Of a stretch of DNA of 16,532 nt, positions 1 to 3,000 are shown in pieces (positions within the stretch are counted from its first letter, which is position 1; each line of letters starts with the position of its first letter). The position numbers were made by a program. The stretch lies in the IMG/VR virus record IMGVR_UViG_2541047434_000024; one strand, given 5' to 3'. Source of the DNA: a virus (lineage: Duplodnaviria; Heunggongvirae; Uroviricota; Caudoviricetes).

Positions 1-3000
1 GCCCGGCCAGTACGATGACGTAGTACCAATCCGGCTCAGATGAAGGGCCGACCTGTGGCTCTCCTTCAATAGCCACCGCCTGCATCAGTGTGTACGGCGT
101 AATGGCAACCGGTCCGCCGTATGGCTGCCAGCCCTCTTTCAGTTTGTGTGTCAGCTTTTCCGCAAGGTCTGACGGCGACGCCGCCCTGACAACATCATAA
201 TGTTTAATCGACATCGAATTTCTCCCGTGTACAGGAACAGAGTTAAAAAGCCGGAACCGGAATCAAATCACAGGATGACCATCTGCCAGTGGCTGGTCGT
301 AAAAAAAAGCCGCGCCATGCGCAGCCGGAAATAAAGGGATAACGATGATAGTTTGAGAAAAACAGAAACAACACTTTTGTGGCAAAGCATGGTGCCGGGT
401 GCCTCCCGGTGAATTCAGTACCAGCACCTGAATCCGCGATTATCCCATATACCTGGTTGCTGATCGCCCCTCCGCACAGGGGGATTCACCATGCAGAAGT
501 GTTTTTAATAAACAGCAAACAAAAAAATCAAGCATTATGCAGGCTGTTTCTTTTTATCACCGGCCACAGCAATACCACAATGCCGCAGACCAGCACCCCA
601 TCCGCCAGCACCGACATGATTCTGCTGGTGAAATCCACCATCACCACCAGAAACAGCAGGAGTGCAGCCACAGCCAGGCGCAGTTTTACCGTCACAGGTG
701 ATTCTCCAGACGAAGACCCAGAACACCGGCAATCTCTTCCAGCACCTTGCGCTCTTCCGGCTCAATTTCGCCGTCTGCCTCCGCAATGGCCACCGCCACA
801 TCCAGCACATCTTCCGCTTCACGCGTATCGTGTTTCACATCCTCAATCTCACGTAACGCCGCACGACGACCAGTTTTAAAGTTCGTATCCAGCTGACCGA
901 TAATGGTTGCGCTAATCGCATTAATTTCTGACGTAAACGCGGACAGCGCAGGCTGATTACGCAGTACCTGTTCGATCTTCGCTTTCTCGGATGCCTCACA
1001 TTCACCATCTGCACAGGCCACCAGGTATGCGGCGTTAATCACCACCTGTGCCAGATCGCGTTTTTCAAACTTTTTAATTTCCGTTGCCGCTCTGCGGGTT
1101 TTCTTTTTGAAGATTCCAAACATCGTGACGTTCCTTTGGGTGGGTGAGCCAACGCCCGGGAGCGATCTGCCCACAGAGAAAGTCACACTGACCACTCCGT
1201 AAGCTCACCCCCGAAAGGCTCTGTGGTTGGTATGCGCCGGGCGTGGCGCAGATACAAAAAAGGCCCGCCGAAGCGAGCCTGGAAAATAAGTGTGGCGCGT
1301 TGTAGTGGAGTCGAACCACTGACCGATTGCTTAGAAGGCAATTGCTCTGTCCGGCTGAGCTAACAACGCAGAATACCGATAATGGACCGCCATCGGGGAC
1401 CCGGCCCCGCACCAACAACCCTGTTATGGTGTCGTCTGCTCTTCCTGATAAGCTAATGGCGGTTTGTGATGGTGGCCCTTGCTGGATTTGAACCAGCGAC
1501 CTGGCGATTATGAGTCGCTCGCTCTCACCACTGAGCTAAAGGGCCGAGCCAAAAAATAATAATCAGATGAAAATCAATAATCAAGCCCTTGCCTGGATAC
1601 ATATCTGTCTGGCGGGAAGCCATAATAGCGGTGAAATACAGAAATAAAGTAGGACCGGCTTGAATAACCACATTTTTCTGCTACAGCCTGTCCATATCCA
1701 TACCGGGAACATAACATATTTACAGCAACACGCATCCGCTCTTCCAGCAACAAGCGACTGAACATGCCCCCTTCATTTTTCAGTTTTGTCTTTAACAAAC
1801 TCTCACTCATATGCAACTGTAGAGCAATCGCACCAAGCGTCCAGCTTGCTGATATATCTGTCTGAATTATCGCCCTGACTTTGGCACTTATGCTGGATAA
1901 ACATCCACTTAAAAACAATGACATCCGTTCATCTGTTTCAAACAGAGACAGGCAGGCCATCATAAGAAACATATCCGTGACCTCTCCGGAAAATCCCTGG
2001 CTGGTAATTAAAGCCGCAGCCAACGCAGGATTGTTGGGTTCCAGCAACAGGTAAAGCGGAATGTCAGTCAGACGAGTCCTCGTCAGCTTATGCTGACTTT
2101 CCAGATATTGACTTACGACGGATTCGCTTATATCGACAATTTTAACTTTGCCATAATGCATAAGGAAAAGCTCCCTGATGCATTTGGTGGCCAGAACGAC
2201 TGAGCCTGGCTTAAGTGACAACGTATCCTTTTCAAGAAAAATATTAATTGGGGAGCAAACCATGATAACTGAACAGACAACAGCCATTATAATTTTACTT
2301 TCATTAGCAATTGGTTAGCTCAATTATAGCCCCAAAAGGTAAATTATCATCAACACATAAGCAAAGGACTGACAGGTGCCGCCCCCCCCACCAGCCGCCC
2401 ATTTACCACAAATAAAAAGCCTTCAGGACTGAATGCGTCTGTAACAACCGCACTGATAGTCTGCCAGACCCGCCATAACCAGCTGGGTCAGTATTAACTG
2501 GCAGCGTTCGCGTGAAAGGTAAGTATTCTGCGCAATCTCCCCGACTGTCGCCGGTTCGGTAACGCTTAATTCATTAAACACCACTCTGGCGGTTTCTGTC
2601 ATATCCTGCTGTTTTAGCATGTCTTTTTCCCTTTTCCGGTTAACGTGACATACCAATAACTCTTGTCGAAAAAGCCAGCAAGTTGAAAGACCGGTATTAG
2701 CAACCACCAGCGCGTTTAACGCCCCGTGCCGTTTTTCAGTCATAAAAAAACCCGCAAAAAGCGGGCTCTTTCAAATGTCCATGTCTGCTATTCGCCTCGC
2801 GGTACAGCTTTGCGAAGCTTACCGGAATTGAAGCAGTTTTTACGTCAAAAAGCAATAACTTTTTTCTCTATACCAAAAGCCATAACCATTGGTTTGTACA
2901 AAATAAATTCTGCCACCTTTAGCCAATGCTCAATGCGTCTTTCACAGGTTCTTAAACTCCATTCCGGATGTGCATCATTCAGCAATTCAGCCATTTTGCG

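What the first reader, a model, noticed from the sequence alone, without database searches (positions are those of the whole stretch)
528..1123. Unannotated 55-aa two-helix membrane ORF translationally coupled to the TerB-like gene
A GTG start overlapping the TerB-like stop (GTGA) with GGAG 8 nt upstream opens a 55-codon frame encoding two strongly hydrophobic segments. It falls below the ORF-track size cut-off. TerB-like proteins are often membrane-associated, so the pair may be a functional unit (possibly lysis-timing or stress-related) in the late region, followed by a terminator and a DUF1737 gene.
Basis: seen in the sequence. Interest (0 to 1): 0.55.

Follow-up and report, generated by a model that had tools for sequence, protein, structure and literature searches.

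The report
Known phage gene pair tciA–tciB
The 55-codon frame is a real small membrane-protein gene, but it is already annotated (TciB, family DUF3927) and is the usual partner of the phage TerB-like gene tciA; nobody has yet tested what the pair does.

Summary
Window 528..695 (-) is a 55-codon GTG-initiated frame. Its start overlaps the TGA of the TerB-family gene (692..1123, -) as GTGA, with GGAG 8 nt upstream.

It is not unannotated. RefSeq calls it "DUF3927 family protein" (WP_000216636.1). It matches Pfam PF13064 (E=4e-17) and PHROG 1470 "TciB-like" (E=4e-30). The upstream gene is TciA (TerB fold). The pair was named in phage P1, by homology only.

A TciB-type ORF follows tciA, overlapping or abutting its stop, in:
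- 23/23 informative species-level genome loci
- all 79 complete close viral loci
- P1, an N4-like phage and lambdoid phages
- 6/6 informative distant metagenomic members

dN/dS is about 0.35. Asp21, Ser28 and Asp32 are near-invariant across the family, and both termini are basic, which suggests an N-in/C-in hairpin. AlphaFold2, however, twice gave one straight helix.

Best reading: TciB is the inner-membrane partner of amphitropic TciA, carried in the accessory-gene slot that stx2 occupies in Stx2 phages. The phenotype is untested, and nothing supports a lysis-timing role. A phage-434-type lineage carries TciB without TciA.

Verdict: ordinary and already known; low interest.

The parts
692..1123 (-). 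tciA: 143-aa TerB-fold protein (RefSeq 'tellurite resistance TerB family protein', WP_001302123.1)
   Evidence: Pfam TerB PF05099 E=3.7e-14. PHROG 632 E=1e-68. PDB 2JXU TerB E=2.9e-7 over residues 15-137. RefSeq annotation.
528..695 (-). tciB: 55-aa DUF3927 small membrane protein (WP_000216636.1), the ORF of the finding
   Evidence: dN/dS median 0.35.
692..695 (-). GTGA start/stop overlap (tciB GTG 695..693, tciA TGA 694..692): translational coupling
   Evidence: Read directly from the sequence. The same overlap occurs in 91 of 108 homologous loci, and a 1-nt overlap (TGATG/TAATG) in 11.
704..707 (-). GGAG Shine-Dalgarno-like motif for tciB, 8 nt before the GTG. It lies inside the conserved Leu-Glu codons (CTG GAG) of tciA.
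   Evidence: GGA(G/A/T/C) is kept at this spot in most lineages, but it is also constrained by the conserved L(E/D) residues of TciA.
1132..1135 (-). AGGA Shine-Dalgarno for tciA, 8 nt before ATG 1123..1121
   Evidence: Read from the sequence.
636..677 (-). TciB hydrophobic segment 1 (residues 7-20), preceded by K4/R6
600..635 (-). TciB conserved polar-faced core D21-F-T-S-(K/R)-x-x-S28-x-x-x-D32. D21, S28 and D32 are present in at least 70 of 72 family representatives.
   Evidence: column statistics on alignment A5.
555..599 (-). TciB hydrophobic segment 2 (residues 33-47) with conserved W44-P45, followed by a basic C-terminal tail (K48, R49)
351..523 (-). STnc100-family (PasD-related) prophage sRNA, starting 5 nt after the tciB stop
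   Evidence: Rfam RF02076, 102.7 bits against a gathering score of 47, full model. Literature context.
308..326 (-). Intrinsic-terminator-like hairpin with a T-run; it closes the tciAB/sRNA unit
1261..1280 (-). Terminator-like hairpin between tRNA-Arg and tciA
1293..1545 (-). Phage tRNA pair upstream of tciA: tRNA-Arg(UCU) 1293..1369 and tRNA(CAU) 1470..1545 (Ile2 according to PGAP)
1..214 (-). 5' end of the SASA/NanS-p sialate O-acetylesterase gene (DUF1737 N-terminal domain), downstream neighbour

Best explanation
Window 528..695 (-) is tciB, a member of the known DUF3927/PHROG-1470 family. Window 692..1123 (-) is tciA, a TerB-fold protein. Together they are the tciA-tciB accessory ('moron') module first named in phage P1.

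Shown:
- Both frames are conserved coding genes.
- tciB always starts on or next to the tciA stop, so ribosomes finishing tciA re-initiate on tciB and the two products are made together.
- The pairing holds across P1-like, lambdoid and N4-like phages and in distant metagenomic relatives.

Inferred:
- TciB inserts into the inner membrane, most likely as an N-in/C-in hairpin. Both ends are basic. The conserved acidic/polar core (D21...S28...D32) would lie at or near the periplasmic side.
- TciB serves as the membrane partner or docking site for TciA. TerB proteins are reported to be peripheral or amphitropic at the inner membrane.
- The pair would then be a split equivalent of single-chain 'TM + TerB' proteins such as DjlA, YebE/DUF533 and Bunzi BnzA.

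More speculative:
- The complex monitors or protects the inner membrane of the lysogen or infected cell against depolarising insults (superinfecting phage, pore-forming colicins, membrane-acting defence effectors). These are the phenotypes linked to ter operons.

In this prophage the module sits after the Q-like antiterminator gene and the tRNAs and before STnc100, nanS-p and the lysis genes. That is the slot stx2AB occupies in Stx2 phages, so it is probably read from the late promoter.
For: Identity:
- RefSeq annotation with identical coordinates.
- Pfam DUF3927 E=4e-17 and TerB E=4e-14.
- PHROG 1470 and 632.
- PDB TerB 2JXU.
- P1 tciA/tciB/tciC record notes.

Coupling and pairing:
- GTGA overlap read.
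- 22 of 23 informative genome loci from different species have a DUF3927 HMM hit starting within a few nt of the tciA stop. The 23rd (L022) has a divergent 55-aa TciB-like ORF overlapping the stop.
- 79 of the 80 close viral loci have a tciB-type ORF or nonsense allele in place; the 80th ends inside tciB at the contig edge.
- The pair is also found in Pollock (N4-like), Fostie, JLK-2012 and P1.
- 6/6 informative contigs of family members only 29-38% identical have TerB directly upstream.

Selection:
- Median dN/dS is 0.35 in the tciB frame, against 1.0-1.8 in non-equivalent frames.

Membrane partner idea:
- Two hydrophobic stretches. Net charge is +1.5 at the N-terminus, -1.3 in the middle and +1.4 at the C-terminus over 72 representatives. 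D21, S28 and D32 are near-invariant.
- TciA gives weak hits to the membrane-tethered TerB proteins DjlA (NCBIfam) and DUF533/YebE.
- DjlA is a TM helix followed by a TerB-like domain (PMC11709261).
- TerB is described as membrane-associated or amphitropic and proposed to act in 'membrane surveillance' in Bunzi, Shango and Dionysus.

Slot:
- STnc100 lies directly after stx2B in Stx2 phages (PMC12711010) and directly after tciB here.
Against: - No experiment addresses TciA or TciB. The names come from homology, and P1 CRISPRi shows only that tciA/B/C are non-essential for plaque formation (PMC10695390).
- AlphaFold2 predicted a single straight helix (residues 2-54 and 3-53, pLDDT about 91), not a hairpin, with 15- and 72-sequence alignments.
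- D21/S24/S28/D32 fall on one face of a continuous helix.
- No natural TerB-DUF3927 fusion was found among 125 family clusters. The long hits are chimeras or frameshifts.
- A widespread phage-434-type lineage carries TciB with no TerB gene within 2 kb (80/80 loci).
- TciB divergence is only loosely tied to TciA divergence (r=0.47; TciA 87-97% identical pairs with TciB 47-75%), so the two are not tightly co-adapted.
- No PADLOC defence model matches significantly.
Confidence: 0.6

Rival explanations
1. TciB is an autonomous small membrane protein (for example a superinfection-exclusion or membrane-modulating factor) whose activity does not need TciA. On this view the adjacency reflects co-regulation, not a complex.
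For: - The solo TciB lineage in phage 434/2B8-type prophages: 80/80 IMG/VR loci lack any TerB ORF within 2 kb.
- TciB and TciA identities are poorly correlated, so the module is mosaic.
- No fusions exist.
Against: - Everywhere else the two genes overlap or abut, including in relatives at about 30% identity and in unrelated phage types.
- The solo copy has a TTG start two codons after an in-frame TGA and no Shine-Dalgarno motif. All 80 copies are identical, so it may be a recent relic and gives no evidence of selection.
Confidence: 0.22
2. The pair tunes lysis timing (TciB as a holin- or antiholin-like membrane protein).
For: - In lambdoid prophages the pair lies in the late operon a few kb upstream of holin/endolysin.
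- TciB is small, hydrophobic and has charged ends, as holins do.
Against: - In P1 it is in the C1-repressed ban early operon, and in N4-like Pollock it is among early genes, not near lysis genes.
- No holin Pfam/PHROG match, even at E<=10.
- This prophage and phage JLK-2012 carry their own annotated holin, and phage Fostie carries both an annotated holin and a separate Phage_holin_8 ORF.
- The constant partner is TerB, not an endolysin.
Confidence: 0.07
3. The frame is not translated. On this view it is kept open by chance, or its conservation reflects the antisense strand or the promoter/5' region of the adjacent STnc100 sRNA.
For: - The wobble-coincident antisense frame (part of the + strand ORF 379..879) shows the same low dN/dS (0.36).
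- An sRNA gene starts 5 nt after the stop.
- A few nonsense alleles exist.
Against: - The antisense frame carries stops in 5 of 27 diverse loci. Its low dN/dS is the expected artefact of shared third positions.
- The protein family is recognisable down to about 30% identity, with invariant residues, in contigs that share no DNA similarity and no STnc100.
- The start/stop overlap with tciA is conserved.
- Nonsense alleles are as frequent in tciA as in tciB (3 each of 80), in genomes with a median of 6 copies.
Confidence: 0.02

Closest known systems
Phage P1 TciB (P1_gp075) with TciA (gp074), the tciABC operon; PHROG 1470 / Pfam DUF3927 (PF13064)
   Same: Same protein family (PHROG E=4e-30, Pfam E=4e-17; 50% identity to P1 TciB in alignment A1). 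Same order, TerB-like gene then small membrane ORF with overlapping stop/start. tRNA genes, including a CAU-anticodon Ile2-type tRNA, lie next to the module in both.
   Different: P1 has a third 35-aa gene, tciC; no homologue is seen here. P1 expresses the operon from the C1-controlled ban promoter. Here the pair sits in the lambdoid late region after the DUF1133 Q-like gene. The overlap is TGATG in P1 and GTGA here.
TerB of the terZABCDE(F) tellurite/phage/colicin-resistance operon (PDB 2JXU) and its membrane partner TerC
   Same: TciA has the TerB fold with both ADG...E motifs. In both cases a TerB gene is followed by a membrane-protein gene.
   Different: No other ter genes are present in the window. 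TciB is a 55-aa protein with no detectable similarity to the polytopic TerC family. The TerB-TerC interaction is recalled from the literature, not tested here.
Single-chain membrane-tethered TerB proteins: DjlA (TM + TerB-like + J domain) and YebE/DUF533
   Same: These combine a membrane anchor with a cytoplasmic TerB-like domain. TciA gives sub-threshold hits to both models. The DjlA architecture is described in PMC11709261.
   Different: There the anchor and TerB are one polypeptide, with the anchor N-terminal. Here they are two coupled genes with the membrane protein second. There is no J domain. No fused TerB-DUF3927 protein exists in 1.84 billion representatives.
TerB-containing anti-phage systems (Bunzi, Shango, Dionysus)
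   Same: A TerB-domain protein is combined with membrane proteins. The proposed role is membrane surveillance.
   Different: No significant PADLOC hit. Those systems have extra enzymatic or pore-forming partners and are host-encoded. tciAB is phage-encoded, including in strictly lytic N4-like phages.

Membership tests
DUF3927 (Pfam PF13064) | Score above the curated gathering threshold over the full model | tested here: met
   62.3 bits against a cut-off of 25, model positions 2-50 of 53. All 14 diverse homologues also match.
DUF3927 (Pfam PF13064) | Small protein (about 50-60 aa) with the conserved core D-F-T-S...S...D-G and W-P near the C-terminus | tested here: met
   D21, S28 and D32 are present in at least 70 of 72 representatives, F22 in 63, S24 in 62, W44 in 54 and P45 in 52. 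The window protein has all of them.
TciB (phage P1 tciABC / PHROG 1470) | Profile match to PHROG 1470 and homology to P1 TciB | tested here: met
   E=4e-30, positions 1-54 of 54. tblastn hit to P1 tciB. 50% identity in alignment A1.
TciB (phage P1 tciABC / PHROG 1470) | Located immediately 3' of a TerB-like tciA, with overlapping or abutting stop and start | tested here: met
   GTGA overlap at 692..695. The same arrangement is seen in P1, Pollock, Fostie and JLK-2012.
TciB (phage P1 tciABC / PHROG 1470) | Third gene tciC following tciB | tested here: not met
   The only ORF overlapping the tciB stop (440..535, 31 aa) shows no resemblance to P1 TciC by eye and lies inside the STnc100 match. tciC is not needed for family membership: Pollock and Fostie also lack it.
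[quoted passage not shown] | An experimentally shown phenotype | not testable with these tools
   The name was given by homology (P1 record note). Only non-essentiality in P1 is reported.
TerB family (for the partner gene 692..1123) | TerB Pfam match and similarity to a solved TerB structure | tested here: met
   PF05099 E=3.7e-14. 2JXU_A E=2.9e-7, residues 15-137 aligned to 21-144.
ter operon (terZABCDEF) | Presence of terC, terD, terE or terZ neighbours | tested here: not met
   None among the 34 annotated features of the window.
Holins / antiholins | Match to a holin family, and a position next to the endolysin gene | tested here: not met
   No holin hit in Pfam at E<=10, and the only PHROG match at E<=0.01 is PHROG 1470. 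The class II holin and lysozyme lie beyond the 1.85-kb esterase gene.
Two-TM helical hairpin inner-membrane protein | Two membrane-spanning helices joined by a short turn, both termini cytoplasmic | tested here: inconclusive
   Hydropathy and charge distribution fit this topology. The hydrophobic runs are only 14-15 residues, and AlphaFold2 gives one straight helix. No dedicated topology predictor was available.
Known TerB-containing defence systems (Bunzi, Shango and other PADLOC models) | Significant match to a PADLOC model | tested here: not met
   TciB: none. TciA: only PDC-S48 at E=0.0052 with no stretch passing.

The most novel reading that the evidence does not exclude
TciA and TciB form a minimal, self-sufficient two-protein 'Ter-like' membrane device. 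TciB oligomerises so that its invariant Asp21/Ser28/Asp32 face builds a cation- or proton-binding site or conduit near the periplasmic leaflet. TciA (a TerB fold, predicted metal-binding) gates or senses it from the cytoplasm. The phage would gain control of membrane potential, for example to block superinfection or pore-forming colicins, or to blunt TerB-based host 'membrane surveillance' defences.
Probability: 0.12. Interest if true: 0.55.

Novelty: already known. Interest (0 to 1): 0.15.

Why it matters
As a discovery it matters little. The gene is annotated, belongs to curated families, and its pairing with tciA has been on record since the P1 genome annotation.

The residual value is as a clean, widespread and untested model. 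The module is found in 840 of 5,426 complete E. coli genomes, at a median of 6 copies each. It combines a TerB-fold protein with a 55-aa membrane partner, in the same accessory slot as Shiga toxin genes. It could help explain what TerB domains do at membranes, which is still open for ter operons, DjlA and several anti-phage systems.

Tried and rejected
1. Rosetta-stone search for TerB-DUF3927 fusions. A profile search of 1.84 billion representatives found 125 family clusters. The four long hits are a histidine-phosphatase chimera and frameshifted read-throughs. No genuine fusion was found.
2. AlphaFold2 of TciB with 15- and 72-sequence alignments, to confirm a hairpin. Both gave a single straight helix. 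No fold search was run because a lone helix is uninformative.
3. Remote similarity of TciB to other families (TerC, holins and others). Nothing below E=0.28 apart from DUF3927. No PDB sequence relative.
4. PADLOC and NCBIfam scans. No defence-system or equivalog assignment.
5. dN/dS as a discriminator of strand. The wobble-coincident antisense frame gives the same value, so stop-codon counts were used instead.
6. A profile-based locus scan with the TciB alignment failed because no stretch was conserved enough. It was replaced by a single-protein scan with 434 TciB.
7. Literature. No paper on TciB or DUF3927 function. The P1 genome paper and the Anantharaman 2012 Ter paper are not held.
8. Lysis-timing and cell-division-inhibitor readings were considered and set aside for lack of any specific support.
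Full report
**1. What is in the sequence**

On the minus strand, window 692..1123 encodes a 143-aa protein starting MFGIFKKK, with an AGGA Shine-Dalgarno motif 8 nt upstream. Window 528..695 encodes a 55-aa protein from a GTG start. The junction reads CTGGAGAATCACCTGTGACGG. GGAG lies at 707..704, followed by 8 nt, then GTG at 695..693, whose last two bases begin the TGA stop at 694..692.

**2. It is already annotated and belongs to curated families**

- The same 1.4 kb is 100% identical to E. coli O157-type chromosomes. There PGAP annotates exactly these coordinates as 'DUF3927 family protein' (WP_000216636.1) and 'tellurite resistance TerB family protein' (WP_001302123.1).
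- The small protein matches Pfam DUF3927 (E=4.3e-17) and PHROG 1470 'TciB-like' (E=4e-30).
- The upstream protein matches Pfam TerB (E=3.7e-14), PHROG 632 (E=1e-68) and the solved Klebsiella TerB structure 2JXU over nearly its whole length (E=2.9e-7).
- In phage P1 the homologues are tciA and tciB, followed by tciC. [quoted passage not shown]
- A CRISPRi screen found P1 tciA/B/C non-essential (PMC10695390).
- I found no paper that tests TciB or DUF3927 function.

**3. Is it a real gene?**

- I fetched 24 species-level genome loci and 80 viral loci through TciA and searched all six frames with HMMs of both proteins.
- Of the 23 informative genome loci (TciA 35-97% identical to the window's), 22 have a DUF3927 match beginning within a few nt of the tciA stop. 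They include Pantoea, Franconibacter, Buttiauxella, Erwinia and Rosenbergiella, and also Bilophila and Desulfovibrio MAGs.
- The apparent exception, L022, has a divergent 55-aa TciB-like ORF overlapping the stop.
- Of the 80 close viral loci, 79 carry tciB; L107 ends inside tciB at the contig edge.
- Start/stop geometry is conserved: GTGA in 91 loci and TGATG/TAATG in 11, with a few other close arrangements.
- Seven very distant family members (29-38% identical) were traced to metagenomic contigs. All six informative ones have a TerB gene directly upstream, overlapping or abutting. The seventh sits at a contig end.
- Median pairwise dN/dS is 0.35 in the tciB frame and 1.0-1.8 in the other frames. 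The exception is the antisense frame that shares third codon positions (0.36), an expected artefact. That frame, part of the + strand ORF 379..879, has stops in 5 of 27 diverse loci.
- A few decayed alleles exist among the close copies: tciB W44* in L060 and L070, a 1-nt deletion at the junction in L076, and tciA E46* in L032 and L070.
- Decay is as frequent in tciA as in tciB. It is unsurprising given that 840 of 5,426 complete E. coli genomes carry the pair at a median of six copies.

**4. The family**

- A profile search of 1.84 billion representative proteins found only 125 clusters, almost all 45-75 aa.
- Across 72 representatives, D21 (71/72), S28 (71/72) and D32 (70/72) are near-invariant.
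- F22, S24, K/R25, R6, W44-P45 and K48 are also strongly conserved.
- Mean net charge is +1.5 before the first hydrophobic run, -1.3 in the D21-D32 segment and +1.4 after the second run.
- This pattern fits the positive-inside rule for an N-in/C-in hairpin with the acidic core toward the periplasm.
- However, the hydrophobic runs are only 14-15 residues, and D21/S24/S28/D32 fall on one helical face.
- AlphaFold2 gave a single uninterrupted helix (pLDDT about 91) with both a 15- and a 72-sequence alignment.
- I therefore treat 'membrane protein' as well supported and 'two-helix hairpin' as likely but unproven.

**5. Relation to TciA**

- No true TerB-DUF3927 fusion exists. The long hits are chimeras or frameshifts.
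- TciA gives sub-threshold hits to DjlA and DUF533/YebE. DjlA is a transmembrane helix followed by a TerB-like domain (PMC11709261).
- TerB proteins are described as membrane-associated or amphitropic, and are proposed to do 'membrane surveillance' in the Bunzi, Shango and Dionysus defence systems.
- The simplest mechanistic reading is that TciB is the membrane partner of TciA, with translational coupling ensuring co-production.
- Two observations temper this:
  - A phage-434/2B8-type lineage has TciB without any TerB gene within 2 kb (80/80 loci). That copy has a TTG start two codons after an in-frame stop and no SD, and all copies are identical, so it may be a relic.
  - TciB divergence tracks TciA divergence only loosely (r=0.47). 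For example, JLK-2012 TciA is 97% identical to the window's but its TciB is 69% identical. This indicates mosaic exchange at or within tciB.

**6. Genomic setting**

On the minus strand the order is:

1. DUF968 gene
2. RusA
3. DUF1133 gene (Q-like)
4. a hypothetical gene
5. an AraC-type HTH gene
6. tRNA(CAU)
7. tRNA-Arg(UCU)
8. a terminator-like hairpin
9. tciA
10. tciB
11. STnc100-family sRNA (351..523, Rfam 102.7 bits)
12. a terminator-like hairpin (326..308)
13. the NanS-p-type esterase gene
14. outside the window: holin, YdfR and lysozyme

In Stx2 phages STnc100 lies immediately after stx2B (PMC12711010). A recent survey lists TerB among the genes conserved around related prophage sRNAs (bioRxiv 10.64898/2026.05.13.724894). 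So tciAB occupies the accessory-gene slot that stx2AB occupies in Stx2 phages.

In P1 the module is in the C1-controlled ban operon next to tRNA genes. In the N4-like phage Pollock it is among early genes. That varied placement argues against a dedicated lysis-timing role. No holin family matches.

**7. Verdict**

The claim that the ORF is unannotated is wrong with respect to public annotation. The 'functional unit with the TerB-like gene' idea is well supported by conservation. The lysis-timing suggestion has no specific support. This is the known tciA-tciB module and is ordinary for an O157-type lambdoid prophage. Its biochemical function remains untested. My mechanistic proposal (a membrane partner for an amphitropic TerB-fold protein, protecting or monitoring the inner membrane) is an inference, and the decisive experiments are listed under next steps.

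Noticed in passing
window 351..523 (-): A full-length match to the Rfam STnc100 sRNA family (102.7 bits) starts 5 nt after the tciB stop and is followed by the terminator-like hairpin 326..308. The same sRNA family lies directly after stx2B in Stx2 phages and is related to PasD. It may be a 3'-UTR-type sRNA of the tciAB transcript.
   Followed up: partly
L005 2441..2599 (phage 434) and L111-L190: There is a 'solo' TciB lineage. Its 52-aa TciB is identical in 80/80 viral loci, has a TTG start two codons after an in-frame TGA and no SD, and has no TerB gene within 2 kb. It is preceded by a 247-aa polytopic membrane protein with no Pfam match. It is unclear whether it is expressed.
   Followed up: partly
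window 1470..1545 (-); L003 2716..2791; L002 4152..4385; L015 590..1042; L023 3159..3413: tciAB is repeatedly next to phage tRNA genes: here, in P1 (trnA, trnT, trnI), in JLK-2012, and in Bilophila and Desulfovibrio loci. The CAU-anticodon tRNA here is called Met by ARAGORN but Ile by PGAP, as for P1 trnI.
   Followed up: no
window 379..879 (+): This 166-aa 'shadow' ORF is antisense to tciB and part of tciA, in the frame that shares third codon positions. It shows the same low dN/dS as tciB (0.36) purely as an artefact, and it is interrupted by stops in 5 of 27 diverse homologous loci.
   Followed up: yes
window 440..535 (-): A 31-aa ATG ORF overlaps the tciB stop at the position P1 tciC would occupy. 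It is unrelated to TciC and lies inside the STnc100 match. A published RIBOseq table reports sizeable ribosome coverage on some STnc100 copies in EDL933 (PMC5331693).
   Followed up: no
P0301 (L195 56..334) and P0332 (L196 376..645): These are DUF3927 family members of 89-92 aa with a C-terminal extension rich in heptad-like, charged residues (…LQQENTSLRRRL…, …LEEQKRALEADNARL…). A TerB gene is directly upstream in L196.
   Followed up: partly
L022 2938..3105: A divergent TciB-like ORF in Rosenbergiella metrosideri has lost the first invariant Asp (GLSSRLIGLFADL in place of DFTSRIMSVLADG) but still overlaps the tciA stop.
   Followed up: partly
E. coli genome search: The tciAB segment is present in 840 of 5,426 complete E. 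coli genomes at a median of 6 and up to 10 copies per genome. Nonsense alleles occur in both genes (L032, L060, L070, L076).
   Followed up: partly
window 5689..6013 (-): A hok/sok-type toxin-antitoxin locus: a Hok/Gef family CDS at 5689..5844 with a full-length Rfam sok antitoxin RNA match at 5839..6013.
   Followed up: no
window 13236..13650 (+): DicF sRNA (13236..13287) lies upstream of dicB (13462..13650). P1 also has a dicF-like region in the same operon as its tciABC (L003 574..675).
   Followed up: no
window 10619..10862, 13928..14729, 15154..15705, 16175..16532: The prophage looks defective. It has a frameshifted cro/CI-family gene, a truncated recE, an integrase fragment and an IS256 transposase fragment, according to the RefSeq annotation.
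   Followed up: no
window 1574..2287 (-): A 237-aa AraC-type HTH regulator gene lies between the Q-like region and the tRNAs. From memory it resembles the prophage-encoded Psr/PatE regulators of O157. This was not tested.
   Followed up: no
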